64,000 nucleotides of DNA from an uncultured delta proteobacterium (GTDB lineage: Bacteria; Desulfobacterota; Binatia; UBA9968): NCBI GenBank assembly GCA_963847445.1, contig CAWJZV010000030.1, positions 1 to 64,000 of the forward strand. The letters run 5' to 3'. The notes beneath the pieces were generated by a model. The model was given only the letters and a program-made list of their open reading frames with translations, did not search any database and had not been told where the DNA came from. The stretch's first letter is position 1. Each line of letters starts with the position of its first letter. Shown piece by piece: positions 11,430 to 54,408 of the stretch. A program made the translations under genes and the position numbers.

Positions 11430-11502
11430 ATTTACCCGCGCTTTCTTGAAGGAATAACTCGTGTTGCGCTACTAATACCTGCTAAACCAGCCACAAGCAA
11501 TA

Positions 11503-35505: not shown

Positions 35506-36058
35506 ATGAAAAGACAACTCACGCTCACCGTCAACGGCGCAGGACCACGAAGTTGAAGTCGAAGCCAATCGCTTACTGCTGCAAGTGCTGCGCGACACTC
35601 TCGATCTCACCGGCACCAAAGAGGGTTGCAGCATCGGCGTGTGCGGCGCGTGCAGCGTCATCATCGACGGCCGCTTGGTCAGTTCTTGCCTGACCCTCGC
35701 CGCCGGCTGCGTAGGCAAGAAGATCGAAACGATTGAAGGTTTGGCCAAAGACGGCAAGCTCCATCCGCTCCAGCAGGCGTTTATCGAATACGGCGGTTTT
35801 CAGTGCGGTATCTGCACTCCGGGTCAGATCATGGCTGCCAAAGCCTTGCTCGACGAAAACGCCAAACCCAGCGAAGAAGAAGTCAAAGAATGGATGTCGG
35901 GCAACCTGTGCCGCTGCACGGGGTATTATAAAATTCTTGAATCGGTGATGGCGGTGGTGGATGGCAAGACCGATCCCGACTACGCGTTTCGCAAGCGCGA
36001 GACCACCGCGAAGATTCAGAGCTTGGACGTTTATAAACCGGTTGCGAAAACGAGCTGA
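35506..36058 (+). CDS. (2Fe-2S)-binding small subunit, CoxS/XdhC-like (5' frameshift)
   Basis: GTKEGCSIGVCGACS, FQCGICTPG, GNLCRCTGY. Confidence 0.9.
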
Positions 36059-36078
36059 TATCATCTCGAAGGGATAAT

Positions 36079-36170
36079 GTCTCGCGCCAAGGCGCAACGG
36101 ACCCCAAGTTCGGAAAGGCAGCAATCAGTTTTCCTTTGCGCCCTTGCGCCTGCGGAGATAATCCGAGAAA
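36079..36170. repeat. Palindromic element family A copy inside operon
   Basis: CGCCAAGGCGCAAC..CCAAGTTCGG..CTTTGCGCCCTTGCGCC. Confidence 0.6.
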
Positions 36171-36189
36171 ACAGCGAGCCGCATCAATC

Positions 36190-38542
36190 ATGTCTAAATC
36201 AGAAAACTTCTCCGTCGTCGGCAAGCGCGTGCAGCGCGTCGAGGGCTTCGACAAAGTCACCGGCGATTCAAAATTCATCGCCGACATTCATTTGCCCGGC
36301 ATGCTGACCGGCAGAATCCTGCGCAGCCCCTACCCCCACGCGCGCATCCGCGCCATCGACACCAGCAAGGCGGAGAAGCTGCGCGGCGTGCGCGCCGTGG
36401 TCACCGCCGAAGACACCCTCAAACGACCCTGGGGCGCGTTCTTCGCCGACCAATACATTCTATCCGTCGGCAAGACCCGCTATGTCGGCGAAGAGGTCGC
36501 GGCGGTGGCGGCCATCGATCCGGATATCGCCGAGGAGGCGCTGGATTTGATCGAGGTGGATTGGGAACCGTTGCCCGGAGTGTTCGACGCCGAGGAAGCG
36601 ATGCACGACGGCGCGCCACTGGTGCACGACGACAAGCCCAACAACATCGCCATGCATCTGGATCTCGAACGCGGCAACATCGCTCAAGCCTTCGCCGACT
36701 CGGACATTATCGTCGAGGACACCTTCACCAGCATGCCGCAGTGGCACTGCTCCATCGAAACCATCGGCAGCGTGGTCGAGTACTCGCCCAACGGCAAATA
36801 CACGATCTACATGAATACTCAGACTCTGTTTAACGCGCGCTATCGCATCGCCACGGCTCTCGGCGTGCCCGAGACCGACGTGCGGATCATTCAGAGCGCC
36901 GTCGGCGGCGGTTTCGGCGGCAAGTCGTGCGACGATAACAATGCGCTGGTCTGTGCCGTGCTCGCGCGCAAGGCCGGCAAACCGGTGCGCGTCATCAATA
37001 CGCGCGAAGAAGAGTTCCTCGCCGGCTGCCGGCCGCGCGTGTTCATGAAGATCAACGTCAAGTTGGGGTTCAAGAAAGACGGCCGCATCCGTGCCAAAGA
37101 ATTAAAAGTCATCGCCGACAACGGCGCCTACTCGGCCAAGGCGCCGGCGATCACCGGCGTCGCGGCGATGCGCCATGACACCTGTTACAAGTACTCCGAC
37201 GTCAAGCTCGAAGCCAAGCTGATCTACACCAACAAGATTCCCACCGGCGCCTTCCGCGGCTTCGGCAATCCGTCGGCGGAATGGGCGGTGGAGCAAGCCA
37301 TCGACTTGGGCGCCCACGCTCTCGGCATCGATCCATTGGAGATAGCCCGGATCAACGCCGCGGAAACCGGCTACGTCTCGCCCCATGGCAATCGCGTCAC
37401 CAGCTGCGAGCTCAAGCAATGTCTCGACATGGCTGAGCAGATGATCGACTGGAAAGCCAAGCGTGCCAACAAAGCGCCGAATACGGGCTTGGGCTTGGCC
37501 TGCACCGTGCACGTCAGCGGCAAGCGCCATTTCGGCGATTACGACGGTAGCTCGGCGACCATCAAGATCAACGAAGATGGCAAGGCGCTGATCCTGAGCG
37601 GCGAAGGCGAATGCGGCCAGGGCGTGCATACGGCGATGTGCCAGATCGCCGCCGAAGAGTTGGGCGTGGCGGTGGAAGACGTGGAAATCTCCCGCGCCGA
37701 CACCGATCTGACGACCTTTTGTCTGGGCGCTTTCGCCAGCCGCTTGACCTACGTCAGCGGCAACGCGGTCAAGAACGCCGCCACCAACGTCAAAGCACAG
37801 CTCTTCGAGCAAGCCGCCGAAATGTTGGAGGCCAACGCTGCCGATTTGATGTCGCGGGACGGCAGGATTTTCGTCAAAGGCGCCGAAGGCAAAGCGGTGA
37901 CCGTCGCCGATGTCGCTCGTGCGCGCTTATTCCGCCACAACGGCGCGCCGATTGTCGGTTCCGGCAGTTTCGACGCCGACTCGGTGTTGCCCAGATAGCA
38001 CGCGCTTCGGTAATGAATCGGGCGCTTACAATTACGGCGTGCAAGCGGCGCAAGTCCATGTCGACCCGCAAACCGGCCAGGTTAAAGTCTTGCAAATGGT
38101 CGTCGCCTCCGACTGCGGCACAGTGATCTATCCCATCGGCGCCGAAGGCCAGGTCGAGGGCGGTTTGGCCCAAGGCATCGGCTACGCCCTCACCGAAGGT
38201 TTGCAGATCGACGAAGGCCGGCCGCTCAATCCCAATTTTTCCGATTACCGCATCCCCTCCATGCGCGACATGCCGCCGTTACAGCATGCCTTCGCCGATT
38301 CCTACGAGCCAACGGGACCGTTCGGCGCCAAAGGACTGGGCGAACTCAACATGGACCCGACAGCCGCGGTTATCAACAACGCCATCTTCGACGCCGTCGG
38401 CGTGCGGGTGAAGACCCTGCCGATCACCCCGGAAAAAATCCTACGTGCGCTAAAGGAAAACAGAGCAACAAGTAAGCAGCACAAGAGCCATGATGAGAAA
38501 GACTTTTCACCACGATCACGAAGCACCATGCTTGAAGAATAA
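36190..38542 (+). CDS. Xanthine dehydrogenase family Mo-binding large subunit (frameshift near 37990)
   Basis: VGGGFGGK, GAFRGFGNP, GECGQG, GPFGAKGLGE. Confidence 0.9.
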
Positions 38543-38595
38543 TCATCCGACCGTTGTGGTGCATAGCTATTTGCGCTGTCCGCGCGAGAACAAGC

Positions 38596-39456
38596 ATGAT
38601 TAGATTCGACTACCAGGAACCGACGACGCTGAAAAAAGTCTTCGCCTTGATGGAAAAACATGGCGACGATGGCCGCGTCATCGCCGGCGGGACATCGTTG
38701 ATCATCATGATGCGCCAGCGCTTGCTCACCCCCAAAGTGGTCATCAGTTTGGCGCGGCTGTCGAAGTTCGACAAGATCAGCTACGGCGCCAAAGACGGCC
38801 TGCGCATTGGCGCCGGTGCGCGCCATCGCGACATCGAGCTGTCGAAAGCCGTGCAGCAGCATTATCCCCTGCTCCACGAAACCTTTCGTAAAGTCGCCCA
38901 GCCGCGCATTCGCAACATGGGCACCGTCGGCGGCAACCTCGCCGCCGGCGATCCGCTGACCGATCCCGGCGCCAGCCTGATCGCTCTTGATGCCGAAGTG
39001 ACGCTCACCAGTAGTAAGGGCCACAGAACATTGCCGTTGGATGAGTTCTTCATCGACTACTATCAAACAACCATGGAACCCGGCGAATTGCTGACTGAAA
39101 TCCACGTCCCACCGCCGACCCGGCCCGGCTGGTCACATATCAAGTTCACGCCGCGCAGCGTCGAAGATTTCGCCACGGTGGGCGTGGCAATCACTCTGCG
39201 AACCAAGGATGGCATCTGCGAGGATGTGCGGCTCGGCCTCAATTCGGTTTCCTCGACGATAGTTCACGCTAAGAAAGCCGAAGCGATTTTGCGCGGCAAA
39301 GCCATCACGGACGAGCTACTGCGCGAAATGGGCGAAGTCGCCGCCAGCGAATGCGATCCCACCGACGACAACCGCGGCTCTGCCGAATACAAACGCGAGC
39401 TTGTGAAAGTCTTGGTCCCCCGCGCCGCGAACGAAGCAATTGCGCGCGCCGGTTGA
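38596..39456 (+). CDS. FAD-binding medium subunit, CoxM-like
   Basis: IAGGTSL, IRNMGTVGGNL, DNRGSAEYK. Confidence 0.9.
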   Translation: MIRFDYQEPTTLKKVFALMEKHGDDGRVIAGGTSLIIMMRQRLLTPKVVISLARLSKFDKISYGAKDGLRIGAGARHRDIELSKAVQQHYPLLHETFRKVAQPRIRNMGTVGGNLAAGDPLTDPGASLIALDAEVTLTSSKGHRTLPLDEFFIDYYQTTMEPGELLTEIHVPPPTRPGWSHIKFTPRSVEDFATVGVAITLRTKDGICEDVRLGLNSVSSTIVHAKKAEAILRGKAITDELLREMGEVAASECDPTDDNRGSAEYKRELVKVLVPRAANEAIARAG

Positions 39457-42346: not shown

Positions 42347-42830
42347 ATGAAACAAACGCATCCGTGTCACTATCAATGGCCGGCTCTACGAAGAAGAGGT
42401 CGAGCCGCGCATTTTGCTCGCCCATTTTCTGCGCGAGACCATCGGACTGACCGGCACCCATGTCGGCTGCGTCATCGGCGAATGCGGCGCCTGCTCGGTG
42501 CTGCTCGACGGCAAAGTGGTCAAGTCTTGCCTGCACTTCGCGGTGCAGGCCGACGGGCGGGAGATCACGACCATCGAAGGCTTGGCCAAAGACGGCGAGC
42601 TCAATCCGGTGCAGGAAGCGTTCGTCAAGAATTACGCCTTTCAGTGCGGCTATTGCACGCCGGGCATGGTGATGACCAGCCACGCGCTGCTTGCAGAAAA
42701 ACCCCAATCCATCGGAAGAGGAGATCCGCAAAGCGCTGGCCGGCAATCTGTGCATGTGCACCGGCTATGTGCAGATCGTCGACGCGGTGAAAGACGCGGC
42801 AAAGGGAATGAAAAATGGCTAAGTTCGTAG
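42347..42830 (+). CDS. (2Fe-2S)-binding small subunit (frameshifted)
   Basis: [33 protein letters not shown]. Confidence 0.88.
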
Positions 42831-45247
42831 GCAACCGTTCACGCAGCAAAGAAGGGCCGCGCCATGTCACCGGCCGCGGTCTTTTCACCGATGATTTCAC
42901 AATTGCCCGGCATGCTCCAGGCGATGATTCTGCGCAGTCCGCACGCCCATGCGAAAATACTTTCCGTCGATGCCTCGGAAGCGCTCAACCAGCCCAACGT
43001 GTTTGCCGTGGTCACCCCCGACGATGTCAAAAAACTGACCAAGCCCTTCAAGCCCGGCCGCTATGCCGCCGGTTTGAAAAGACCAATTGACGAGTACGCC
43101 GGCGCCGTCGACAAGGTCCGCTATGTCGGCGAGCCCATCGGCGCGGTGGCGGCATGGGATCGCGGCACGGCGGAAGATGCTCTCGAATTGATCCAAGTCG
43201 ACTACGAGCCGCTGCGCCCCAACGTCGACGTGCACGAAGCGATCAAGCCGTCGTCGGCGGCTTTATTCGACGAGCTCGGCACCAATCTGGCCTGGACCGG
43301 TTCGCTGCAATACGGCGACATCGACGCTGCGTTCAAGTCCGCCGATCGCGTCGTCACCGAGAAATCTGAAAATTCATCGCTACAGCTCGACGCCGTTGGA
43401 ACCCTTCAACGTCATCGCCTCCTTTGACGCCGCGAGCAAACGCTTGACCGTGTGGGTGACGGCGCAGGTGCCGGAAGTGATTTACGACGGCCTGCGCGAA
43501 GCGCTTGGGGCTGCAAGACGTTCGCGTGATCATTCCCGATGTCGGCGGCGGCTTCGGCCAGAAGATTCATTTGATTCGCAAATACGTCGTGCTGGTGTCG
43601 CTCTTGGCGATGAAAACCGGCCGGCCGGTGAAATGGATCGAGGACCGCACCGAGCACATGATGGCCGGCGGCCATGCCTGCGCTCAGGAAGTCGAAGCCG
43701 AAGCGGCGGTGAAGAACGACGGCACGGTGCTCGGTCTCAAATTCAAAGAATATGATGACGTCGGCGGCTCGATCAGCACGCTGACGATTCACTTCACCAA
43801 CAAGCTCAACAATCTGTCGAACACCTACAAGACGCCGGCCATCTACATGGAAGGCAATGCGGTGGTGACCAACAAGTGCCCGGTCATTCCCAACCGCGGC
43901 ATCGGCAAGCCGGGCATGTGCTTCATCTGGGAACGGATGATGGACCGGGTGGCCCAGGCGCTGAACTTGAGCCCCATCGAAGTGCGCCGGAAAAATCTCA
44001 TCCAGGCCAACGAGATGCCCTACACGCACCATCAGCGGCAACGTCTACGACAGCGGCGATTACCCCGGCCTGCTGAAAACGCTTTTGGAGAAAATCGACT
44101 ACGACAAGCTGCGCGAAGAGCAGAAAACAAGCGCGCGAACAAGGCAAGCTGATCGGCATCGGCATCGTCATCGGCGTCGAGCCCGGCGGGCGCAATGCGG
44201 CGCGCGACATGGCGATCTTTCCCGAGATGAAAGAACCGCCCGGCTCCGGCGGCGTCAACGGCGCGAAAATTAAACTGGAGAAAAACGGCACGCTGTCGCT
44301 CCACTTGGGCTCGCCCAACTGCGGCCAGGCGCATGAGACGACGACGGCGCAGGTCGCCGCCGATATTCTCGGTTCGACGCCGGATAAGATTCAGCACCAG
44401 CATCCCCTTCGACAGCGATCTGTCGTCCTGGGGCGTGGCCGCGGCCAATAGCGGCAATAACTTTCACTTATACGATATCGGCGCGATCCACGGCGCAGCG
44501 ACCAAGCTGCGCGAGAAGATTCTCAAGCTCGCCGCTTTCAATCTCAAAGCCGAACCGTCCGAACTGATCATTGAAGACAGCGTCGTGAAAGTCCCCGGCG
44601 CGGCGGCGAAACAAATCACCTTCGCCGAGTTGGGCCGCATCGCCTACAACAACCAGCATCTGATCCCCGACGACATGGAACCGGGGCTAGAGGCGACCTT
44701 CTACTACATGTTTCCCCACGCCAAACCGAACATCGTGCCCGGCGCCGACCGCAAGGTGCGCGCGCAGTTTACCTTTTCCGCCGGCGCCCATGCGGCCATC
44801 GTCGAAGTCGACAAGAACACCGGCGCGGTGCATGTGCTGCGCTATTTGATCGTCGGCGACAACGGCACGGTGATCAATCCCGATGTCGTCAACGGCCAGG
44901 TTTACGGCTCGGCGGCCCACGGCATCGCCGTCGCCCTGGGCGAGGGTTTCATGTACAGCCCCGAGGGCCAGCCGCTGACGATCACCTATCTCGACTACGG
45001 CAAATGCTCGACGGCGGAGACGCCGCGCGTCGAAGTCATCCATCAGCCCTCGCCGTCGCCGTTCACCTCGCTGGGCCAGAAAGCCGCCGGCGAAGGCGCG
45101 GCGATCCCCTCGCCCGCCGCCATCGCCAGCGCCGTCGAGGATGCCTTGCAGCCCTACGGCGTGAAAGTTTGCGAGTTGCCGATCACACCCGAAGCGGTGT
45201 GGCGCTTGATCAATCACAATCCGGAAAAAGAGCGGAGGACTTTCTAG
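42815..45247 (+). CDS. CoxL-like molybdopterin hydroxylase large subunit (several frameshifts)
   Basis: [39 protein letters not shown]. Confidence 0.85.
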
Positions 45248-45249
45248 TC

Positions 45250-46110
45250 ATGATTCCCGGCTCTTTCGAATACTTTGCGCCCCGTTCTCTCGACCGATGC
45301 GGTAAAGTTCCTGGCGGATCATCGCGACGATGTAAAAATTCTCTCCGGCGGGCAGAGCTTGCTGCCGCTGATGAAGATGCGCTTGTCAAAGCCCGCCTAC
45401 ATCGTCGACATCGGCCGCATCCCCGGCTTGGATACGATCAGCGAAGACGGCAACAATCTCATCATCGGCGCGCTGGTCACCCACGAACAGATCGAATATT
45501 CCGACCTGCTCAAGGTTAAATGCCCGCTGCTGCCGCAAACCGCCACGACCATCGCCGACGTGCAGGTGCGCAACCGCGGCACCATCGGCGGCAGCATCGC
45601 CCACGCCGATCCGGCCGGCGATTGGCCGGCTGCGGTCATCGCCCTTGACGCCGAGATTCGCGTCTTCGGTCCCAGCGGCGAGCGTTGGGTCAAGTGTGAC
45701 GACTTCTTTCTCGGCTTGCTTGATGAGTGTGCTCGGAACCGGATGAGATCGTCACTGGAATCAAAGTGCCGGTGACCGGCAGCGACAAGACCGCCTATCA
45801 GAAAGCCGCGCCACGCTCTTCCGGCTTCGCCGTCACCGGCGTCGCCGTGCGTTTGGCGGTCGATGCCGCCGGCACATGCAGCCGCGCGGCCATCGGCATC
45901 ACCGGCGTCGGCGACAAGGCTTACCGCCCCGAGCGCACCGAGCAGATGTTAACCGGCAAGAAGCTCGACGCGAAATTGATCGAGGACGCGGCCGCCGAGT
46001 CGACGCGCAATATCGAAGTCATCGAAGACATCAACGGCTCGTCGGAATACCGCGCCCATCTGACTCATGTCTACGTCGTTCGCGCGATACAAGAAGCATT
46101 GAGCCGATAG
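45250..46110 (+). CDS. FAD-binding medium subunit (frameshifted)
   Basis: SGGQSLLP, QVRNRGTIGGSIAHADP, DINGSSEYR. Confidence 0.88.
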
Positions 46111-46163: not shown

Positions 46164-47048
46164 TCACATAACCTGGCGGCGCAGGTAGGCGCTGATGTAA
46201 TCGACAATCGTCACCAAAATGTAAATCGCTATGATTAAGGTCAGCAACTGCTGCTCAAAAAATAAGCTGATGGCGATATGGATGCGCTGGCCTAAACCGC
46301 CGGCGCCAACCAGCCCCAACACCGCGGCCATGCGAATGTTAACTTCCCAGCGATAAAGCGTGTAGGAAATAAACTGCGGCAGCACCTGCGGCACGATGCC
46401 GTAGAATAATATTTGCAACCGATTCGCCCCGGTGGCTTGGAGCGCTTCGATGGGCTGGGAATCGACGTTTTCCAGCACTTCACCGAAGAGTTTGCCAAGC
46501 ACGCCGCCGGTGTGAACGCCGAGGGCGAGGACCCCCGGAAACGGCCCGAGGCCGACGAGAAATACAAAGATCAACGCCCACACCATCTCCGGCACCGTGC
46601 GCAGTATATTGAGCAGGCTCTTCGCCGCGAGATAGGGCACGATGCGCGCCTTGCGCCGCCAACCCTGTTTGGGCTCCATCTCATAGAGCAAACCGGAAAA
46701 TATTAAGTTGCGCGAAGCGAAAAATACCACTGACAGCGCGATGGCCACGGCCAGGAGCGTTCCCATGAAGGAAATCGCGAAGGTCTCAATGCTCCCCTTC
46801 ATCGCCTCGTGCAAGACGTTGGGCGAAAGATCCGGTGGCAGCAATTTTTTTATGTAGATGAGGATCTGTCCGAAGCTGTCGGCGCTGAAGAGCTGCGCCA
46901 GATCGATGCCCGCGCCGCGATAGCTCCAGATAAGAAAGGCGCCAAAGGCCAAACCGATGGCAGCGTTCTTCCATGTCGAGGGCGTGGCAGCACGGGCGCG
47001 GGTCGGCGGAATCGTCTCACAAGCGTTCGGCAGCGGCGACGGGCTCAT
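46164..47048 (-). CDS. phnE: PhnE/PtxC family ABC permease
   Basis: RTVPEMVWA, YRWEVNIR, LGLVGAGGLG. Confidence 0.88.
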   Translation of the reverse strand: MSPSPLPNACETIPPTRARAATPSTWKNAAIGLAFGAFLIWSYRGAGIDLAQLFSADSFGQILIYIKKLLPPDLSPNVLHEAMKGSIETFAISFMGTLLAVAIALSVVFFASRNLIFSGLLYEMEPKQGWRRKARIVPYLAAKSLLNILRTVPEMVWALIFVFLVGLGPFPGVLALGVHTGGVLGKLFGEVLENVDSQPIEALQATGANRLQILFYGIVPQVLPQFISYTLYRWEVNIRMAAVLGLVGAGGLGQRIHIAISLFFEQQLLTLIIAIYILVTIVDYISAYLRRQVM

Positions 47049-47899
47049 AGCATGGCACGCACTTTCGCGCTCAAGTAATCCACTGCGGCAACCATCAGAA
47101 ACAACATGATCAAGATCGTCAGCACTTCATTGAAATTGAACATGCGCATGGAGATTTCGATCTGCTGGCCCAAGCCGCCGGCGCCGACCAAGCCTAAAAT
47201 TGCCGAGGCGCGCACAGCGCACTCCCAGCGATACAGCGTATAGGAAACGAAATTGGGCAGCGCCTGGGGAAACCAGCCATAGAAAAACACCTGCAGCTTA
47301 TTTGCCCCGGTGGCCTGCAACGCTTCCAGAGGCCGGGAATTCACCGACTCGAAGATCTCTGAATAGACTTTGCCGAGCATGCCGCCGTAGGCGACCCCGA
47401 TGGCGAGCACGCCGGGAAACGGCCCCAAGCCGACGGCGCGAACGAACATGAAGGCCCAGACGAATTCCGGTATTGAGCGGAATAGACTCAGCAAGCCGCG
47501 CGCGACCAGATAGATGCCCTGACGTAGACCCCGGCGTAGGGGCGCGCCTTGGAGCTCGGCATCGTTGAGGATGCCGCCGACGACCAGCGTATGGGTGCCC
47601 AACAGTCCGAGTGGAAAACCGATCAGAACCGCGATCGCCGTGCCCCAGATAGAGATTTGAATAGTCTCTAAAGCCGGACGCAGCATCAAGGATAGAAAAT
47701 TCCACGAGACCTCCGGCGGAAACATGCCGGTAAGAAATTTCCCCAACGACGCGCGCCCGCGGTTGGAAAAAAACAGCTCCGGCTCGATCCCCGCCCTTCT
47801 CCAACTGTCGACGAATACTATTACGAAGAGAGCCGCGAAAAGATAGGGAAAGTAGGCTTTAGCTGAGCGAAGGGTAAGCGATGGGCTCGATGGTTTCAC
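47045..47899 (-). CDS. phnE: PhnE/PtxC family ABC permease
   Basis: RSIPEFVWA, YRWECAVRAS, LGLVGAGGLG. Confidence 0.88.
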   Translation of the reverse strand: MKPSSPSLTLRSAKAYFPYLFAALFVIVFVDSWRRAGIEPELFFSNRGRASLGKFLTGMFPPEVSWNFLSLMLRPALETIQISIWGTAIAVLIGFPLGLLGTHTLVVGGILNDAELQGAPLRRGLRQGIYLVARGLLSLFRSIPEFVWAFMFVRAVGLGPFPGVLAIGVAYGGMLGKVYSEIFESVNSRPLEALQATGANKLQVFFYGWFPQALPNFVSYTLYRWECAVRASAILGLVGAGGLGQQIEISMRMFNFNEVLTILIMLFLMVAAVDYLSAKVRAML

Positions 47900-48683
47900 G
47901 CGCGGTCTCGGTCACGGCAGGGTCGCGAAAATTGCCGGAGTACAAATCCTCTAACATATCCTCGCCGATCTTGTCAGGGGACAGATCGAAAGTTACCCGG
48001 CCCTGCTTGATGCCAACGACGCGAGGGAAATAGGCGAGCGCGAGGTCGACACTGTGCAGGCTGACCAGCAAAGTCTTGCGCGTGTTTTGGCTGATATCGA
48101 CCAACAGCCGAACAATCGACGAAGCCAGGGTGGGGTCGACGGATGAAACCGGCTCATCGGCAAGAATAACTTCAGGGTCCTGCACCAAGACACGGGCGAT
48201 CGCGACTCGCTGCTGTTGGCCGCCGGAGAGCTCATCGGTACGCTCAAAAATCTTCTCGGGGATTTCCACTTGGCTGAGCGCGCTGTGGACAAGTTCGACA
48301 TCGGCTGGCTTGCACAAAGACAAGAGCGACCGCAGCGTCGGCCAGCGGCCCAATTGGCCGGCTAGGACGTTATGAATCACGCGCAGGCGCGGCACTAGAT
48401 TATGCTGTTGGTAAACGCTGCCGATGCGGCGCCGCACATGGCGTAAACGCTGGCCATGCAATAAGTCAATATCTTCGCCGTCAATATAAAGTTTTCCCGA
48501 AGTCGGCCGGAGCGTGCAGTTGAGCAGACGAAACAGCGTGGTCTTGCCGGCGCCGCTGGGACCGATCAGGGCGACTTTCTCGCCCTGATCGATCTTTAGA
48601 TCGATGCCGTCGAGCGCCACCTGAAGGCGGCCAAACTCCTTGCGTACGGATTCGAGTTGATATTGCCGGGCCGGGGTGTTCAC
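47859..48683 (-). CDS. phnC: PhnC-like ABC ATP-binding protein
   Basis: GPSGAGKTT, LSGGQQQRVAIAR, LADEPVSSVDP. Confidence 0.9.
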   Translation of the reverse strand: MNTPARQYQLESVRKEFGRLQVALDGIDLKIDQGEKVALIGPSGAGKTTLFRLLNCTLRPTSGKLYIDGEDIDLLHGQRLRHVRRRIGSVYQQHNLVPRLRVIHNVLAGQLGRWPTLRSLLSLCKPADVELVHSALSQVEIPEKIFERTDELSGGQQQRVAIARVLVQDPEVILADEPVSSVDPTLASSIVRLLVDISQNTRKTLLVSLHSVDLALAYFPRVVGIKQGRVTFDLSPDKIGEDMLEDLYSGNFRDPAVTETARETIEPIAYPSLS

Positions 48684-48688
48684 GCGAT

Positions 48689-49546
48689 TTACTTGAACAG
48701 GCCAGCCGCCACCGCCGCCTCTTCGATGCCCTTCCAGTCCGCATCCTTGGCGACGATGTAGCCCTTGGTGCGGTGCAGGTCGAGAAGCTTTTTGTCGTCG
48801 GGTTTGTTGTAGTCGAGTTTGAGAAACGCTTTGGTGATTTTTTCGACCGTAGCCTTGTCGACACCGGCGCGCACGGTCCAGACGTAATCGACATAAGGCG
48901 GCGTGGTCCAGAAAATATTCACCTTGCTGGTATCGACCTTTTTGGTTTCGACGAGCTTATCCCAAACCAAGAAATTCAACGCGCCGGCATCCACCTGGCC
49001 GGATTCGACCCAAGCGGCAGTCGCATCGTGGGCACCGCTAAAGCTGAACTTGGAAAAATCTTTTTCCGGGTTGACGCCGCCTTTGATCAAGAAGTAGCGC
49101 GGCATCAGATGCCCGGAAGTGGAACTGACGCTGCCGAATGCAAAGGTTTTGCCCTTTAAATCTTTCAGACCTTTGATGCCCGTGTCCTTTCGGGTGATAA
49201 AGTGGCTCTTAAACTCGGCGTCCTCTTTGCGCATGATGACACGGTGCGCGCCTTTGGCCTGCTTGGCAGCTTGCACAGACGTCAAGCCGCCGTACCAAAC
49301 CATTTCCAGGCGATTGGCGGCGAGACCTTCAACCGTCGCGGCGTAATCGACCACGGGAGTGAATTTGACTGGAATGCCGATCTCCTTGGTCAAATAATCG
49401 GCAAACGGCGCATAGATGCGCAGCATCTCCTGCGGGTTTTCATCGGGAATCGCCGATATTCGTAATTCCTTCAACCCCTGGGCTTGCGTGCTAGCCCAAC
49501 CCAAAGAGATTGCCAGAGCCGCCGCAAAAAATACTACTCGCTTCAT
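48689..49546 (-). CDS. PhnD-fold binding protein, putative selenate ABC transporter subfamily
   Basis: SAIPDE, WYGGLTSVQA, GSVSSTSGHLMPR, FSGAHDAT, TTPPYVDYVWTVR recalled as typical of the putative selenate subfamily. Confidence 0.75.
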   Translation of the reverse strand: MKRVVFFAAALAISLGWASTQAQGLKELRISAIPDENPQEMLRIYAPFADYLTKEIGIPVKFTPVVDYAATVEGLAANRLEMVWYGGLTSVQAAKQAKGAHRVIMRKEDAEFKSHFITRKDTGIKGLKDLKGKTFAFGSVSSTSGHLMPRYFLIKGGVNPEKDFSKFSFSGAHDATAAWVESGQVDAGALNFLVWDKLVETKKVDTSKVNIFWTTPPYVDYVWTVRAGVDKATVEKITKAFLKLDYNKPDDKKLLDLHRTKGYIVAKDADWKGIEEAAVAAGLFK

Positions 49547-49594
49547 GATCTCCCCCTTATAAATATCGCTCACAATCGTGACCCATGTTAGATA

Positions 49595-49713: not shown

Positions 49714-50185
49714 CTAACTTTGCGCTTTCAGAAAATCCATCACGGCTTCAGGATGCTCCTCGGCCTTTTTAACAGTCGTCCAGTGCTTGATCACGTCGCC
49801 TTTGGGATCGATCACGACCGTGGAACGGATCGTGCCCTGCACCTCTTTGCCGTACATCATCTTCTTGCCGAAGGCGCCGTATTTTTTCATCACCTCGGTC
49901 TTGGGATCTGAAAGCAATATGAAGGGCAATTTATAACTTCTCGACGAACTTGTTGTGGGACTCGATGCTATCCTTACTGACACCGAGAACGACCGTTCCG
50001 GATTTCTTCAATGCAGCATTCAAATCGCGAAATCCGCAGGCTTCTTTGGTGCAACCGGGCGTGTTGTCCTTTGGATAAAAATAAATCACCACGGTTTTGC
50101 CTTTGTAGTCGTCCAGTGAATGCGTCTTGCCATCGTTGCCTTCCAGGCTAAATGCCGGCGCTTTCTTGCCTTCTAAACTTGCCAT
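49714..50185 (-). CDS. bcp: Peroxiredoxin BCP/PrxQ, Cys form (1-nt frameshift near 49934)
   Basis: [18 protein letters not shown]; Cys45 TGC at 50051..50053. Confidence 0.9.
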
Positions 50186-50252: not shown

Positions 50253-51053
50253 TCAAACTAACGAAACCCGCTCGGCCTTGTGCGCCATCGCGCGTATCGG
50301 ATCGTAGTCGTGATCATCGGCGGCGGTAAAACGCAACCATCGGCCATCCGCGAGGACCTTGCGGCCAGCGGGATCGAGATGCATCTCGACGAGCAACTGG
50401 CGCAGCGCCTGCCGTTGGGATGCCGCAACCTGGCGCGAGATCACCCAGGGCGGAATCGGACTCGGCCCGATGGTGTCGATCACGCGAATTTCATCCGCTA
50501 GATCATTTCGCTGGCCGCCGAGCCACTCCAACACGGTGCTGTCGATGGCCGCGCCGTCGACGGCTCCCGATAAGATCATTTGCAACGACTTGGTATGGGC
50601 GCCGGCTTCCACCGCCGCGGCAAAAAAATTATCGATTTCACCGAGATCGAAGAGATGCGCGCGCACGACGTTGAAACCGGAATGGGAACGCGGCTCGTTG
50701 TAAGCCCAGGTCGCGCCACGGAGGTCACGGAAAGATCGGCAAGCGCTGTCCCGCCGCACCACCACATCGGAGAAATACACCGGTCTGGATCCGTAGCGCT
50801 CTCCCACCGGTATCGGCACGGCGAGCAACTCCATACTGCTCTCGGCAAGGTCGGCCTTGTGGACGTAGGGTAATCCACAGAGCCAAAGCACTTGAATCTC
50901 GCCGCGATCGAAGAGCGCTTCACGCTCCTGCCAGGGCATGCCGGTCACATACTCCGTCGGGACATTGAGCTTCCCTTGCAGATACCCGGCGATAGCTCGA
51001 CAGAAATCTTCGGTGTTCTCCGCCATGCAGGAAGCGAGCTTTAAAGGATTCAT
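50253..51053 (-). CDS. PhnD/SsuA/transferrin-family binding protein without signal peptide
   Basis: WLCGLPY, YFSDVVV, YNEPRSHSG, GAHTKS, GPSPIPP. Confidence 0.8.
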   Translation of the reverse strand: MNPLKLASCMAENTEDFCRAIAGYLQGKLNVPTEYVTGMPWQEREALFDRGEIQVLWLCGLPYVHKADLAESSMELLAVPIPVGERYGSRPVYFSDVVVRRDSACRSFRDLRGATWAYNEPRSHSGFNVVRAHLFDLGEIDNFFAAAVEAGAHTKSLQMILSGAVDGAAIDSTVLEWLGGQRNDLADEIRVIDTIGPSPIPPWVISRQVAASQRQALRQLLVEMHLDPAGRKVLADGRWLRFTAADDHDYDPIRAMAHKAERVSLV

Positions 51054-51066
51054 CGAGGCGGAACTG

Positions 51067-51348
51067 CTACTCGCTGACCGTCACGCCACGCCAAAAGGCA
51101 ACGTAGTTTTTAATCGAGCCCGCCGCCTCTTTGGGTTCTGGATAAAACCAAGCGGCATCTTGGTTGACCTGGTCGCCCACCTTGACGTGATAGTAACTGG
51201 CCAGCCCTTTCCAGGGACAAGTGCTGTGGGTGTCGCTCGGCGCGAAGCAATCTTTCTTGATCGATTCCGGCGGAAAGTAATGGTTGCCTTCGACGACGAT
51301 GGTTTCGTTTGATTCGGCGACAACCGTATTCTTCCAAACTGCTTTCAT
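51067..51348 (-). CDS. DUF427 domain protein
   Basis: VVEGNHYFPP, STCPWKGLASYY, AAWFYPEPK. Confidence 0.9.
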   Translation of the reverse strand: MKAVWKNTVVAESNETIVVEGNHYFPPESIKKDCFAPSDTHSTCPWKGLASYYHVKVGDQVNQDAAWFYPEPKEAAGSIKNYVAFWRGVTVSE

Positions 51349-51374
51349 GATCAATCCTTTCGATTTACTACGGG

Positions 51375-52736
51375 TCAGTCAGTGACGCAGCGAAACTTGG
51401 CGAACACATAGGGATAGTGCGCTTGATACCAATTGCGAAAACTTGGCCGCAGCAGTGCCGCATCGGTGGCCCAGGACGCGCCTTTGACGACAAAATGTTT
51501 GCCGTCGAAAAAATCCTTGGAATAGTCGGGATAGGTCGTCATGTAGGGCGTGAACCCCGGCAGCGGTGCAAACGGTGTATCGGTCAGCTCCCAACCATTG
51601 CCGACCAGCTCTTGAACTCCCCAGCGGCTAGCACCCGCGGGATGTGAACCGACCGGCTGCGGCGACCATGCGCCAAAGTTGAAGTTGCCATGGCGGGCCG
51701 CAGGCTCGGCATCGCCCCAAGGATACGCCGACTCCCGTTCGTCTGGACCGTAGTAGGCGGCGCGCTGATATTCGGCCTCGGTCGGCAAGCGCTTGCCGCG
51801 CCACGCGGCATAGGCACGCGCTTCAGCCAGACTTACGTAGACCGGCCAACTGGCAACTTGCTCCAGCGGAAATTGGTCGAACATCGCACGGTATGACCAG
51901 GTGTCATCCTGTTTGAACCAACCGGTCGGATGTTGTTTCTTCTCAAGTTCTTTCCAGTGCCAATCATCCTCGCGCCAGTAGCGGCGCGCCGCGTAGCCAC
52001 CGGAAAGAACAAACTCGAGATATTCGCCATTGGTAACCGGCAAAGAGTCCATCGCGAAGCCTGCGACATCAACCGTGATCTCGGAGAACTCATTGTCCCA
52101 GCCAAAAGTGATATCTTCTAATCGCGCCCCCAACCGGGCTCTGCCTGGGGGAATGCGAATACTCTCCGCTCTTGCGGCGCGCCCGAATGCGTAACGGGCA
52201 AGACTCGCGCGGCCGAACTTTATCGCCGGGCGCCATCTGCTGCATCATGTAGAGCAAGGTCTCTTGATGCATGTATTCATGCTCCAAGATCAGCTCAAAG
52301 ACGCGCCCGCCTTGGGCCAACAGATCGGTAGAACGGCAATAGCCGAGCGCATCAGTCGACTCTAAGAGAGAGCGCCGGACTTTGTCACGATACTCGAGGG
52401 TCTCACCAAGGCTGGGCCATTGATCCGGTACTTCCGGGTGCCAGTGGCATTCGCCGGTGTCGACGTCGGGATCGATGCCGCGGCAGAACAGATCGTCAAA
52501 ATAAGCATTGAACAGACGGCCAGTGCAGAATGCCGCCGCAAACCTGGTTCCAGGAAAACGCCGGCAAATGACCGATATAAAAAATAAACGGATGACGCCA
52601 AACGATCGGCTTGGTCAAACGTTTGGCCGGTGCCAACGATGGCGAAAATCTTGTCTGAACGCGCCCAGGCATCGACCAACCTGTCACGCAACTGCTCGGC
52701 AGCGCTCGGACCGCGGCTCTTTAACGGCAGTGCCAT
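51375..52736 (-). CDS. DinB + FGE-sulfatase non-heme iron sulfoxide synthase (EgtB/Egt1/OvoA/SenA superfamily), frameshifted
   Basis: RHPFIFYIGHLPAF, FCRGIDPDVDTGECHWHPEVPDQWP, EHEYMHQETLLYM iron-ligand motif, KRLPTEAEY, RPSFRNWYQ. Confidence 0.85.
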
Positions 52737-52753
52737 AACTCGGTACCTCCATT

Positions 52754-52785
52754 AATTAGCTATATACTAAATAGGAATTAGCTAT
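52754..52785. promoter_or_regulatory. LysR-type box upstream of sulfoxide synthase
   Basis: ATAG-N7-CTAT at 52771..52785; AATTAGCTAT repeated 22 bp apart. Confidence 0.6.
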
Positions 52786-52829
52786 GTAAGACCGCGGAGG
52801 TAAAATTTCGATGAAAAAAATGCCGCAGA

Positions 52830-53742
52830 TTATCGGTGTTTGAGAAAATCGCGGAAAGCTTGGGCGATGGGATGGAACGGCCGGCGGCTATGAAAGACTT
52901 GGTAGAAGTTGCGTTCGAGTTTCAGGCCACGGATCGGCACTTCGACGATGCTGCCTTGATCGAGCTCATGGCGAATCGAGATGCGCGATAAAATCGAAAA
53001 GCCGTAACCGGCCATCAGGGCTCCCTTGACGGCTTCCGTGCTGCCAAGCTCCATGGTGATGTTCAAAAGGTCGTGGGCGGGCGGTTTGCGTTTGACCGAG
53101 CAATTGCCGGATGGAATCCAACGTCCCCGAGCCATGTTCGCGTGAAATGAATCGTTCACTGCGCAGGTCCGCGACTTCGATCGCTTTACAGCGGCTCCAT
53201 GGATGGCCTTTGGGCACGGCGACGACCATTTCGTCATCCCAAATCTTTTCGAAACTAAGTCTAGGATCGTCGCCTTTGAAGCCGACGAAGCCGATCTCGA
53301 CCTTGCCATCCAAGAGATCGGCGACCACACCGGCGGAATCGCCAATGCGCAGGATCGGTTTTACCTGGGGAAACTTTTTGATGAACTCGCCGAGCTTTTG
53401 CGGCAGGAGATATTCGCCGGGAATGCTGCTGCCGCCGACCCAAAGCTCGCCGCTGAGAGTGCCGTGAAATTGCTCCACCGCGGCGACGGTTTCGCGTTTG
53501 AAGGCGAGTAGATTCTTCGCCCGTTCGGCGAGCATGAGGCCCAACGGCGTCAGACTGATCTTGCCCGGCATGCGGTAGAGCAGTTTGCCACCCACCGCTT
53601 CTTCGAGCTCTTGGACATGAGCGCTGATGGTGGGCTGGCGCAGCGAGAGCAGCTCGGCAGCCTGAGAAAAACTCTTATGTTCAGCGACCCAGTAGAAAAT
53701 TTCTAATTTGTGGAGATCGAGGTCGGCTTTGATTTTCGCCAT
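52830..53742 (-). CDS. LysR family regulator (CysL/CmpR-like, resembles selenium-metabolism-associated LysR), frameshift near 53090
   Basis: HTH SFSQAAELLSLRQPTISAHVQELE; GSSIPGEYLLP, REHGSGT, ELGSTEAVK. Confidence 0.85.
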
Positions 53743-53762
53743 GGAACAGGAAAAGCTTTGTC

Positions 53763-53808
53763 GCTGAGGGAGCGCGCCATTACAAACAATCGGCCGCGCT
53801 CCCTCAGC
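53763..53808. other. 14-bp perfect hairpin between Sec-peroxiredoxin and LysR
   Basis: GCTGAGGGAGCGCG...CGCGCTCCCTCAGC. Confidence 0.7.
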
Positions 53809-53822
53809 TAGGGTTTGACTAC

Positions 53823-54290
53823 TTACTTACCGAGGAATTCCAACACTTCCGCCGGATGGGCGCCGGCGTCAGTGACAGGAATCCAATGCTTCTTAATCGT
53901 GCCATCGGGGCCGATCAATGCGGTCGAGCGGATCGTCCCTTCCGAGACTTCGCCCGCGGCATTTTTGCGCGGTCCCCAGGCGCCATAGGCTTTCATGGTT
54001 TCTTTCTGCTGGTCGGCTAAGAGCACGAACGGCAGGTTGAACTTGTTGATGAACTGATTGTGAGAGTCGATGCCATCCGGGCTGACACCTACAACCACGG
54101 TATTGGCTTTCGTCACGGTATCGATAGCGTCGCGGAACCCGCACGCTTCTTTGGTTCAGCCAGGTGTGTCGTCTTTCGGATAAAACCACAGAATGACGTT
54201 TTTGCCGGCGTATTCCGCCAGCGAATGTTGCTTGCCGTCGCTCCCCGCCAAAGTGAACGCCGGCGCTTTTTGCCCTTCAAGTCCTGCCAT
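53823..54290 (-). CDS. Selenocysteine-containing peroxiredoxin BCP/PrxQ (155 aa, Sec45)
   Basis: Single frame from ATG 54290 with GGAGG RBS: WFYPKDDTPG-TGA(54158..54156)-TKEACGF; TGA aligns with Cys45 of the paralog. Confidence 0.88.
54127..54146 (-). promoter_or_regulatory. Bacterial SECIS-like stem-loop
   Basis: GCGUGCGG-GUU-CCGC(G)ACGC starting 10 nt after UGA, G in apical loop. Confidence 0.75.
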
Positions 54291-54308
54291 GAAGCACCTC
54301 CGTATTAA

Positions 54309-54325
54309 GATAGTGTTTGTCTATC
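54309..54325. promoter_or_regulatory. LysR-type palindromic box upstream of Sec-peroxiredoxin
   Basis: GATAG-TGTTTGT-CTATC (T-N11-A core). Confidence 0.65.
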
Positions 54326-54408
54326 ACACCGATAATCTATCTATCAATGATCGAGGACCGGCCATTGGCATTGTCAACGGCAATGCTTGACGGTATATTT
54401 TCGCAACT

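What the first reader, a model, noticed from the sequence alone, without database searches (positions are those of the whole stretch)
51375..52736. Bacterial sulfoxide synthase resembling fungal Egt1, orphaned from EgtD/SenB and placed in a Se locus
Seen after joining frames: KPIVWRHPFIFYIGHLPAF, FCRGIDPDVDTGECHWHPEVPDQWP and EHEYMHQETLLYM. From memory, the RGIDPDVD..CH.H.E.P..WP segment is characteristic of fungal Egt1-type enzymes rather than mycobacterial EgtB or SenA, and fission-yeast Egt1 can yield selenoneine. No histidine methyltransferase or C-S lyase is in the window. Inference: it may use selenocysteine or another Se donor, giving a SenB-independent route or a new product.
Basis: partly seen in the sequence, partly recalled or inferred. 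Interest (0 to 1): 0.75.

Follow-up and report, generated by a model that had tools for sequence, protein, structure and literature searches.

The report
Egt1-like ergothioneine synthase in selenoprotein island
This is a bacterial copy of the fungal-type enzyme that makes the antioxidant ergothioneine, probably intact in nature despite three assembly frameshifts, sitting in a conserved gene island with selenium-containing peroxide-removing enzymes rather than being a new selenium pathway.

Summary
Minus strand 51375-52736 encodes a DinB + FGE-type non-heme-iron sulfoxide synthase read across three frames, and all three quoted peptides are present.

The three breaks are single extra bases. Contigs of ~98%-identical relatives from three studies lack exactly these bases. 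The assembly's only cysS, plus selB and lysR, are broken too, so assembly error is the likely cause.

The protein is far below the NCBIfam cut-offs for EgtB, SenA and OvoA. Its nearest relatives are EgtD-fused Egt1-type enzymes (up to 46% identity), which share the GIDPDVD..CH.H..P..WP and RNWY motifs.

In a tree, the window's subgroup is one clade (SH-aLRT 99) nested among bacterial enzymes that sit next to egtD. This subgroup lost that adjacency. It lies instead in a conserved cassette: Sec-PrxQ, selenium-associated LysR, synthase, DUF427, cytoplasmic PhnD-like protein, PrxQ.

egtD is elsewhere: on contig C23 here, and in 20 of 22 related genomes, next to canonical SenA/SenB. Predicted substrate-binding residues match the EgtD-linked relatives.

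Best reading: an ordinary hercynine + cysteine synthase for ergothioneine in a selenium-linked antioxidant island. A SenB-independent selenium route is unsupported.

Earlier notes of this scan describe the same cassette in other genomes.

The parts
51375..52736 (-). Egt1-like non-heme-iron sulfoxide synthase (DinB + FGE domains), read in four frame pieces
52621..52621 (-). first extra base (frameshift); absent from relatives' contigs in 3 of 3 runs that cover it
52511..52513 (-). second extra base (frameshift); left out at 52511 (X1, X5) or 52513 (X10)
52199..52199 (-). third extra base (frameshift); absent in 2 of 2 runs that cover it
51067..51354 (-). DUF427 (beta-tent fold) small protein, about 20 nt downstream of the synthase
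   Evidence: Pfam PF04248 113 bits; PDB 3djm; found in 24 of 79 related loci
50253..51053 (-). PhnD-fold protein with no evident signal peptide; closest solved relatives are the arsenite/arsenate binders AioX and ArrX
49714..50185 (-). PrxQ/Bcp peroxiredoxin A (Cys form), split by one frameshift
48689..49573 (-). periplasmic binding protein, TIGR04553 'putative selenate ABC transporter'
   Evidence: 335 bits, cut-off 250
46164..48683 (-). PhnC-like ATPase and two PhnE-type permeases of the same ABC transporter
52830..53742 (-). LysR regulator of the 'selenium metabolism-associated' family, split by extra bases at 52829 and 53094
53823..54290 (-). PrxQ peroxiredoxin B with in-frame TGA (54156-54158) at the peroxidatic Cys: predicted selenoprotein
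   Evidence: tRNA-Sec, SelB and SelD in the genome
54409..55871 (+). divergent GcvT/YgfZ-like protein and Rieske ferredoxin, syntenic with the cassette

Best explanation
The gene encodes a standalone bacterial member of the Egt1-like (type III-like) branch of non-heme-iron sulfoxide synthases. In the living organism it is most likely intact; the three frameshifts are consensus errors of the assembly.

Inferred mechanism: Fe(II) is held by three histidines (H56, H152, H156 in the numbering of orthologue P0001). The enzyme uses O2 to join the sulfur of cysteine to C2 of hercynine, giving hercynylcysteine sulfoxide. An unidentified lyase then converts this to ergothioneine.

Hercynine would come from the genome's single EgtD, which lies on another contig beside a SenA-type selenoneine synthase. 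One methyltransferase would therefore feed both a sulfur branch and a selenium branch.

The synthase gene has moved out of an egtD-egtB pair into a conserved antioxidant cassette: Sec-PrxQ, LysR, synthase, DUF427, PhnD-like protein, PrxQ. The cassette is presumably controlled by the selenium-associated LysR.

Shown here: family, motifs, phylogenetic position, synteny, egtD/senA co-occurrence, and intact frames in relatives.
Inferred: substrates, product, regulation, and any role of DUF427 and the PhnD-like protein.
For: Integrity:
- Contigs of ~97-98% identical relatives from three independent studies omit exactly the extra bases at 52621, 52511/52513 and 52199, and at 52829 and 53094 in lysR.
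- The only cysS in the assembly is split into two frames. selB is in four pieces.
- Many 452-aa intact orthologues of 65-91% identity are listed among the best 120 of 3631 hits.

Family:
- Pfam and NCBIfam place it in the EgtB/OvoA/SenA superfamily but below every equivalog cut-off.
- The best long relatives are EgtD-fused proteins, up to 413 bits and 46% identity; fungal ones score 185-240 bits.
- The motifs GIDPDVD..CH.H..P..WP, YPxYS and RNWY are shared with them.

Substrate:
- 29 of 79 related loci have egtD directly adjacent.
- The window's subgroup (17 rows) is monophyletic (SH-aLRT 99). It nests in a 24-row clade (97) with 5 EgtD-adjacent rows and 2 others.
- 71 positions are conserved across the subgroup, the other bacterial relatives and the fused forms. 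They include the Fe ligands, Y401/Y404 and N434/W435.
- The ovoselenol preprint states that a bulky aromatic residue at the W435-type position marks hercynine-accepting subfamilies.
- A true EgtD is present in this genome (298 bits, cut-off 291) and in 20 of 22 genomes of the subgroup.

Context:
- Synteny with PrxQ, LysR, DUF427 and the PhnD-like gene in about 40 of 79 loci.
- A Sec-type PrxQ in 29 of 80 loci, all of them in the syntenic group.
Against: - No activity was measured. Substrate assignment rests on homology and gene linkage.
- No C-S lyase was identified here or in the cassette.
- Two of 22 subgroup genomes showed no EgtD. Both also lacked SenA. Their completeness is unknown.
- The cassette's tight link to selenoproteins, a selenium-associated regulator and, in this window, a putative selenate transporter is not explained by plain ergothioneine synthesis.
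- DUF427 and the PhnD-like protein have no assigned role.
- W46 next to R47 is specific to the subgroup and could alter the thiol pocket.
- The laid contigs come from relatives, not from this strain, so a strain-private pseudogene is not strictly excluded.
- The tree is a quick search with SH-aLRT support only. It holds no EgtB-IV, SenA or OvsA rows. The relation between the fungal Egt1 clade, OvoA and the bacterial clade is unresolved.
- The syntenic loci share flanking housekeeping genes, so they are kin and their counts are not independent.
Confidence: 0.62

Rival explanations
1. The subgroup has been recruited to selenium chemistry. It would join hercynine to selenocysteine or another selenium donor, perhaps supplied through the PhnD-like protein, DUF427 or the selenate-type transporter. 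The product would be selenoneine, or a hercynyl-selenocysteine intermediate, made without SenB.
For: - The cassette holds a Sec-PrxQ, a regulator of the NF040786 selenium-associated family and, in this window, a TIGR04553 binding protein.
- The PhnD-like protein resembles oxyanion binders such as AioX and ArrX.
- The genome decodes selenocysteine.
- S. pombe Egt1 is required for selenoneine formation via hercynylselenocysteine (PMC4020840, passages read).
- SenB was not found in this assembly.
Against: - Canonical SenA is over its cut-off in 15 of 20 subgroup genomes, and in 18 of 20 counting fragments.
- SenB sits next to SenA and near EgtD in the one such region annotated.
- In this genome SenA is cut by the start of contig C23, exactly where SenB is expected.
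- Predicted substrate-binding residues are unchanged from EgtD-adjacent relatives and Egt1.
- The selenate-type transporter is adjacent in only 5 of the 79 related loci and is missing from the closest one, L010.
Confidence: 0.12
2. The enzyme works with DUF427 and the PhnD-like protein on a different acceptor or towards a new thio-imidazole product. DUF427 would process the sulfoxide in place of a PLP lyase.
For: - DUF427 follows the synthase in 24 of 79 loci.
- DUF427 is listed as co-encoded with 5.7% of all such synthases (Table 1 of PMC13674229, section read).
- It has the beta-tent fold shared with the sulfoxide reductase MsrB (PMC4287342, passages read).
- No lyase is in the cassette.
- Two subgroup genomes lack a detectable EgtD.
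Against: - DUF427 and the PhnD-like gene are missing from a good part of the syntenic loci.
- The acceptor-side residues are those of hercynine-using relatives.
- There is no biochemical datum on DUF427.
Confidence: 0.1
3. The gene is a true pseudogene in this strain, inactivated by three real insertions.
For: - Three frameshifts in 1.36 kb, none in a long homopolymer.
- rpoB elsewhere in the assembly is intact.
- The laid contigs are from relatives, not from this strain.
Against: - The essential single-copy cysS, selB, lysR, prxQ-A, ubiD and several others are broken in the same way.
- All three changes are +1, and together they restore the frame.
- Outside the breaks the protein sequence is conserved (91% identity to P0001 over the C-terminal piece).
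Confidence: 0.08

Closest known systems
Fungal Egt1 (type III EgtB; EgtD-sulfoxide synthase fusion of N. crassa and S. pombe)
   Same: It has the same DinB + FGE synthase domain with the shared motifs GIDPDVD..CH.H..P..WP, HExMHxE, YPxYS and RNWY. Identity is 32-39% to fungal proteins and up to 46% to other EgtD-fused proteins. The predicted reaction is the same: hercynine + cysteine.
   Different: It is standalone, with no fused or adjacent EgtD. It is bacterial. It lies in a Sec-PrxQ/LysR/DUF427 cassette. The fungal clade is a separate branch (SH-aLRT 100) whose relation to the bacterial clade is unresolved.
EgtB-IV (OvoA-like ergothioneine synthase; PDB 8vih, 8vig)
   Same: It is the closest solved structure by sequence (211 and 181 bits). 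It shares the OvoA-like N-terminal residues (R..Y..H) and the NW hercynine-type motif. It is also standalone.
   Different: EgtB-IV lacks the CH.H insertion and has NWF rather than NWY (Supplementary Table 4 of PMC11030361). No EgtB-IV row could be put in the tree.
EgtD-adjacent bacterial relatives (Rokubacteria, Methylomirabilota, Gemmatimonadota and Acidobacteriota MAGs)
   Same: They belong to the same family at 44-60% identity. 17 of 28 carry the CH.H motif. The window's subgroup nests among them.
   Different: They keep egtD next door (29 of 79 loci) and have none of the PrxQ, LysR or DUF427 neighbours. SenA is over its cut-off in only 4 of 20 of their genomes, against 15 of 20 for the subgroup.
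SenA/SenB selenoneine pathway
   Same: SenA is from the same enzyme superfamily and uses hercynine from the same EgtD. It co-occurs with the window's subgroup in the same genomes.
   Different: SenA is a separate gene on another contig (C23). The window's protein scores 223 bits against the SenA cut-off of 420. No selenosugar genes lie in the cassette.

Membership tests
[quoted passage not shown] | N-terminal DinB domain followed by a C-terminal FGE-sulfatase (C-type lectin) domain | tested here: met
   FGE-sulfatase scores 146 bits on the C-terminal piece. DinB_2 scores only 16.8 bits on the broken middle piece. Intact orthologues carry PF12867 + PF03781.
[quoted passage not shown] | Three-histidine iron site (His in the DinB helix plus HxxxH) and a catalytic tyrosine | tested here: met
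   H56, H152, H156, E158 and Y401 are invariant in alignments A1 and A2 and are present in the window's frames. Their equivalence to the ligands of solved enzymes is by alignment to 8vih.
Egt1-type (type III) EgtB | Closest sequence relatives are EgtD-fused synthases; shared GIDPDVD..CH.H..P..WP and RNWY motifs | tested here: met
   Fused proteins score up to 413 bits and 46% identity. The motif is present in 30 of 30 subgroup proteins and 76 of 120 fused proteins by a strict pattern. Alignment A2 shows it directly.
Egt1-type (type III) EgtB | Fusion to an EgtD methyltransferase domain | tested here: not met
   The protein is a 452-454 aa standalone. No Methyltransf_33 is found in the window. 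EgtD is on contig C23.
Egt1-type (type III) EgtB | Hercynine + cysteine gives hercynylcysteine sulfoxide | not testable with these tools
   Needs an enzyme assay.
EgtB (TIGR03440, types I/II) | Score over the curated cut-off of 360 bits | tested here: not met
   Intact orthologue P0001 scores 220 bits. The family is separated from TIGR03440-type rows by a branch with SH-aLRT 99.
SenA (NF041186) | Score over 420 bits; senB/senC neighbours | tested here: not met
   223 bits. No SenB or SelD family is in the window.
OvoA (TIGR04344) | Score over 400 bits and a C-terminal methyltransferase domain | tested here: not met
   255 bits. The protein ends after the FGE domain. True OvoAs score 684-715 bits and form their own clade.
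EgtB-IV | Composite motif RxYH--DxHxHYxNWFx (ovoselenol preprint) | tested here: inconclusive
   A hand mapping from the 8vih alignment gives RHYH..HMH.YY.NWY, which differs at NWF versus NWY. Positions 7-8 could not be mapped, and no EgtB-IV sequences were available for the tree.

The most novel reading that the evidence does not exclude
The cassette is a selenium-responsive antioxidant unit in which the Egt1-like synthase does more than make ergothioneine. Either it accepts a selenium donor, giving a second, SenB-independent entry to selenoneine, helped by the oxyanion-binder-like PhnD protein and DUF427. Or its thione product is the dedicated reductant or partner of the selenocysteine peroxiredoxins, under a regulator that senses selenium status.
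Probability: 0.12. Interest if true: 0.8.

Novelty: new variant of a known kind. Interest (0 to 1): 0.42.

Why it matters
The literature I could search treats type III (Egt1-type) EgtB as fungal. The ovoselenol preprint says so in the passage read. My search for 'type III EgtB', 'EgtB-III', 'Egt1-like' and 'type III sulfoxide synthase' found only that work.

Here a large bacterial family shares the Egt1 signature. One of its clades has left egtD and settled between selenocysteine peroxiredoxins, under a selenium-associated regulator. The genomes that carry it also carry the canonical selenoneine cluster.

This gives a concrete, testable case for two ideas:
- Bacteria may run a sulfur branch and a selenium branch from a single hercynine supply.
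- Ergothioneine synthesis may be co-regulated with selenoprotein peroxidases.

It also points to DUF427 as a candidate pathway component. DUF427 is listed in print as co-encoded with these synthases (PMC13674229, Table 1) but is not characterised there.

For annotation, the gene should not be called a pseudogene on the strength of this assembly.

Tried and rejected
- Complex prediction of the synthase (alignment A1) with DUF427 (alignment A3) gave no answer: score 0.00, controls not run. This says nothing for or against binding.
- The RNA after the PrxQ-B UGA folds into a hairpin, but no better than shuffled sequence (z = 0.76). I make no SECIS claim from it.
- P0027 (402 aa) looked like a synthase-DUF427 fusion. 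Its N-terminus is out-of-frame sequence and the stop codon is read through, so I treat it as an assembly artefact, not as evidence of a fusion.
- I checked the six uncharacterised subfamilies A-F in Supplementary Table 4 of the ovoselenol preprint. None has this family's motif.
- The first large alignment timed out. I repeated it with faster MAFFT settings.
- A greedy ORF pick on high-GC loci gave spurious antisense ORFs. I replaced it with tblastn using this genome's own EgtD.
- Run X7 did not cover the three frameshift places.
- In the sample of the window's phylum I found 7 of 251 genomes with OvoA, 2 of 251 with EgtB over cut-off and 0 of 251 with SenA over cut-off. This family was not found in those genomes. 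I used these searches only to fetch reference sequences.
- Scan look-ups by place and by sequence gave nothing relevant.
Full report
**Observation**

The start (MALPLKS..., 52736) and the last 252 residues share one frame. KPIVWRHPFIFYIGHLPAF lies in a second frame. FCRGIDPDVDTGECHWHPEVPDQWP and EHEYMHQETLLYM lie in a third.

The C-terminal piece is an FGE-sulfatase domain (146 bits). The middle piece matches DinB_2 weakly. NCBIfam scores the C-terminal piece about equally against OvoA (181 bits), SenA (177) and EgtB (175), all far under their cut-offs.

**Are the frameshifts real?**

Against an intact orthologue (L010, 89.7% nucleotide identity) the window has three single extra bases near 52621, 52513 and 52199. 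None is in a long homopolymer, and together they restore the frame.

I laid contigs of four public runs on 51000-54400. Relatives of about 97-98% identity, from three different studies, leave out one base at each of these places:
- 52621: in X1, X5 and X10.
- 52511 or 52513: in X1, X5 and X10.
- 52199: in X1 and X5, the only runs covering it.
- 52829 and 53094, inside the neighbouring lysR: also left out.

These are relatives' contigs, not this strain's reads.

Other genes in the assembly are broken the same way:
- The only cysS is split into two frames.
- selB is in four pieces.
- In the window, prxQ-A, lysR, ubiD, an amidase and several molybdenum-hydroxylase subunits are also split.
- rpoB is intact, so the errors are uneven across the assembly.

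I put about 0.9 on assembly error and about 0.08 on a true pseudogene.

**What family is it?**

A search with the 289-aa C-terminal frame found 3631 relatives. Most of the best 120 are 452-aa intact proteins, the best at 91% identity, named at most 'SUMF1/EgtB/PvdO family' or 'EgtB'.

The intact orthologue P0001 scores below every NCBIfam equivalog cut-off:
- OvoA: 255 bits (cut-off 400).
- SenA: 223 bits (cut-off 420).
- EgtB: 220 bits (cut-off 360).

Among solved structures, by sequence:
- EgtB-IV (8vih): 211 bits, the nearest.
- Mycobacterial EgtB: 181 bits.
- OvoA: 154 bits.
- OvsA: 113 bits.
- SenA: 88 bits.
- Type II EgtB: 68 bits.

A search restricted to longer proteins found 329 fused forms. 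Nearly all of the 120 listed have the Egt1 architecture (EgtD domain + DinB + FGE). They reach 413 bits and 46% identity. They include Plasmodiophora (45-46%), chytrids (34-39%), Mortierella and Coemansia (33-35%), basidiomycetes (about 35%) and ascomycetes (32-33%). One is annotated as histidine methyltransferase / hercynylcysteine S-oxide synthase.

Fungal proteins read ..ERGIDPDVDDPTKCHAHSEVPDEWP.. and end ..SFRNWYQ.NYP..FA.FR... EgtB-IV lacks the CH.H segment.

By a strict pattern, the CH.H motif is present in:
- 30 of 30 proteins of the window's subgroup.
- 17 of 28 EgtD-adjacent bacterial relatives.
- 3 of 7 other bacterial relatives.
- 76 of 120 fused proteins.

Among 50%-identity representatives of at least 400 aa, it is present in 24 of 88. 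It therefore marks an Egt1-like branch that includes bacteria. It is not a fungal-only feature.

**Genomic context in relatives**

A scan of species-representative genomes gave 79 loci, all from metagenome-assembled genomes. I ran tblastn with the window's neighbours against them. About 40 loci share this order:
- Rieske and GcvT/YgfZ-like, divergent (37 and 34 loci).
- PrxQ.
- LysR (38 loci).
- The synthase.
- DUF427 (24 loci).
- PhnD-like protein (19 loci).
- PrxQ (40-41 loci).

The selenate-type binding protein is adjacent at 47% identity or more in only 5 loci: L020, L024, L036, L044 and L048. It is absent from the closest locus, L010.

The remaining loci have none of these neighbours. Instead, 29 of the 79 have an EgtD gene directly beside the synthase. 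None of these belongs to the syntenic group. One further 38-aa hit in L021 is spurious.

An in-frame TGA at the peroxidatic cysteine of a PrxQ occurs in 29 of 80 loci (the 79 plus the window). All of them are in the syntenic group.

In the window this is PrxQ-B, which reads ..[19 protein letters not shown]... The genome has tRNA-Sec, SelB and a Sec-containing SelD. Intact LysR orthologues pass the 'selenium metabolism-associated LysR' model (268, 262 and 260 bits; cut-off 250).

The syntenic loci L011, L012 and L017 also share the flanking NUDIX, HAD and molybdenum-hydroxylase genes with the window. Many of these loci are therefore kin, and the counts are not independent.

Loci L015 and L058 belong to genomes that the tool flags as unpublished. 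They enter these counts.

**Phylogeny**

I built a tree of 66 rows with IQ-TREE (quick search, LG+C20, SH-aLRT support only). The rows were:
- 17 of the syntenic subgroup.
- 16 other bacterial relatives.
- 20 EgtD-fused forms.
- 4 other fusions.
- 5 OvoA (684-715 bits).
- 4 TIGR03440-type EgtB.

Results:
- The syntenic subgroup is one clade (SH-aLRT 99).
- It lies inside a 24-row clade (97) with five EgtD-adjacent rows (L033, L054, L060, L064, L075) and two rows without an adjacent EgtD (L052, L059).
- A 48-row clade (89) unites all bacterial relatives with the non-fungal fused forms.
- Fungal Egt1 (9 rows, 100) and OvoA (100) are separate. Their order relative to the 48-row clade is unresolved.
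- All of these are split from TIGR03440-type EgtB by a branch of 99.

Correction: in the script I labelled L052, L056, L059 and L083 'EgtD-adjacent', although one search found no EgtD beside them.

The tree holds no EgtB-IV, SenA or OvsA rows, because I could not obtain such sequences as session objects.

**Where is EgtD, and what else do these genomes make?**

In this genome, contig C23 holds:
- A true EgtD (TIGR03438, 298 bits; cut-off 291) at 10495-11652, next to a ProV/OpuB-type ABC transporter.
- About 9 kb away, a SenA-like gene. Its two frame pieces score 190 and 157 bits for SenA, against 157 and 49 for EgtB. It is cut off by the start of the contig.

SenB was not found in the assembly (best hit 37 bits).

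In a related genome, SenB (389 bits; cut-off 300) lies directly beside SenA (505 bits; cut-off 420), with EgtD 7 kb further on. In this genome SenB would therefore fall in the unassembled gap.

Across genomes of the syntenic subgroup:
- EgtD was found in 20 of 22, one copy each, never beside the synthase. 12 score over the cut-off; the others score 278-290 bits. The count is 18 of 20 without the two unpublished genomes.
- SenA is over its cut-off in 15 of 20, and in 18 of 20 counting fragmentary copies. It typically lies 3-10 kb from EgtD.
- The two genomes without SenA are the same two without EgtD.

In genomes of the other bacterial relatives, SenA is over its cut-off in only 4 of 20.

**Has the subgroup changed its chemistry?**

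I compared 35 subgroup proteins, 28 EgtD-adjacent proteins and 120 fused proteins.
- 71 positions are conserved in all three sets. They include H56, H152, H156, E158, Y401, Y404, N434 and W435.
- Only seven well-conserved positions set the subgroup apart from its EgtD-adjacent relatives: V45, W46, Q64, L150, E375, P396 and Y436.
- At Y436 the subgroup agrees with the eukaryotic forms.
- W46, next to R47, is the only one of these that might touch the thiol pocket. That is my inference, not something tested.

The ovoselenol preprint states that hercynine-accepting subfamilies carry a bulky aromatic residue where histidine-accepting ones have alanine (passage read). The family has W435 at the aligned NW position.

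**Explanation**

The simplest account is an Egt1-like hercynine-cysteine sulfoxide synthase for ergothioneine. It shares the single EgtD with the SenA/SenB selenoneine pathway. It is placed in a selenoprotein-peroxiredoxin cassette under a selenium-associated LysR.

The same preprint reports that egt and sen clusters co-occur more often than expected (passage read), which fits this account.

A selenium-donor role remains possible. S. pombe Egt1 is required for selenoneine formation via hercynylselenocysteine (PMC4020840, passages read). But no residue change supports it here, and the presence of the canonical pathway makes it unnecessary.

The roles of two cassette proteins are open:
- DUF427 has a beta-tent fold like MsrB and no zinc site (PMC4287342, passages read; PDB 3djm).
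- The cytoplasmic PhnD-like protein has the arsenite/arsenate binders AioX and ArrX as its closest solved relatives.

**Comparison with print and with earlier notes**

Table 1 of PMC13674229 (section read) lists genes co-encoded with these synthases: DUF427 (5.7%), a putative selenate transporter (3.1%) and PhnE (3.1%). It does not follow them up.

Supplementary Table 4 of the ovoselenol preprint (searched) lists six uncharacterised subfamilies. None has this family's motif. I did not read the supplement of PMC13674229 beyond its file list. It may bear on these co-occurrences.

Three earlier notes of this scan (e1-6644503, e1-6785517, e1-6784765) describe the same cassette in other genomes and reach the same reading. 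They are not independent evidence. I reached and tested the reading here before seeing them.

**Verdict**

The enzyme looks ordinary in its chemistry. Its bacterial Egt1-like identity and its selenium-linked setting make it a new variant of a known kind, of moderate interest.

Noticed in passing
window 53823-54290 (-), TGA at 54156-54158: This PrxQ peroxiredoxin has an in-frame TGA exactly at the peroxidatic cysteine, so it is a predicted selenoprotein. The same feature occurs in 29 of 80 related loci. In some loci both flanking PrxQ genes are of the Sec type.
   Followed up: yes
window 28313-29672 (-), and many other genes in the window: The assembly's only cysS is split into two frames. ubiD, an amidase, several xanthine-dehydrogenase-type subunits, prxQ-A and lysR are also frame-broken, which points to local single-base errors in this contig.
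   Followed up: partly
G000 contig C23:1-16000 (L090): A SenA-like selenoneine synthase is cut by the contig start and frameshifted. It is followed by a GlcNAcase-like gene, and about 9 kb away lies a true EgtD beside a ProV/OpuB-type ABC transporter. SenB was not found in the assembly.
   Followed up: partly
G000 contig C14:192903-195726: selB is in four frame pieces, directly upstream of a selD that has one in-frame TGA (a Sec-containing SelD).
   Followed up: no
window 7815-10076, 35510-39456, 42351-46107: Three sets of CoxSML/xanthine-dehydrogenase-type molybdenum hydroxylase genes lie in one 64-kb window. Two of these sets are syntenic with the cassette in loci L011, L012 and L017.
   Followed up: no
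proteins P0128, P0156, P0126, P0129, P0131 (P0128 and P0156 in alignment A2): Some eukaryotic fusions have the synthase domain first and EgtD at the C-terminus, the reverse of fungal Egt1. Others add a class I/II aminotransferase domain, so the whole pathway sits in one protein.
   Followed up: no
proteins P0135 and P0138: These are bacterial relatives of the synthase fused to other domains. P0135 carries a pyridine-nucleotide-disulfide oxidoreductase. P0138 carries PAS and GGDEF domains. Both nest among Acidobacteriota rows in the tree.
   Followed up: no
loci L011 11130-12236 and L012 11077-12216: Where the window has the selenate-type ABC transporter after the second PrxQ, these relatives have a transglutaminase-like gene. 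The transporter is therefore a variable insert in the cassette.
   Followed up: partly
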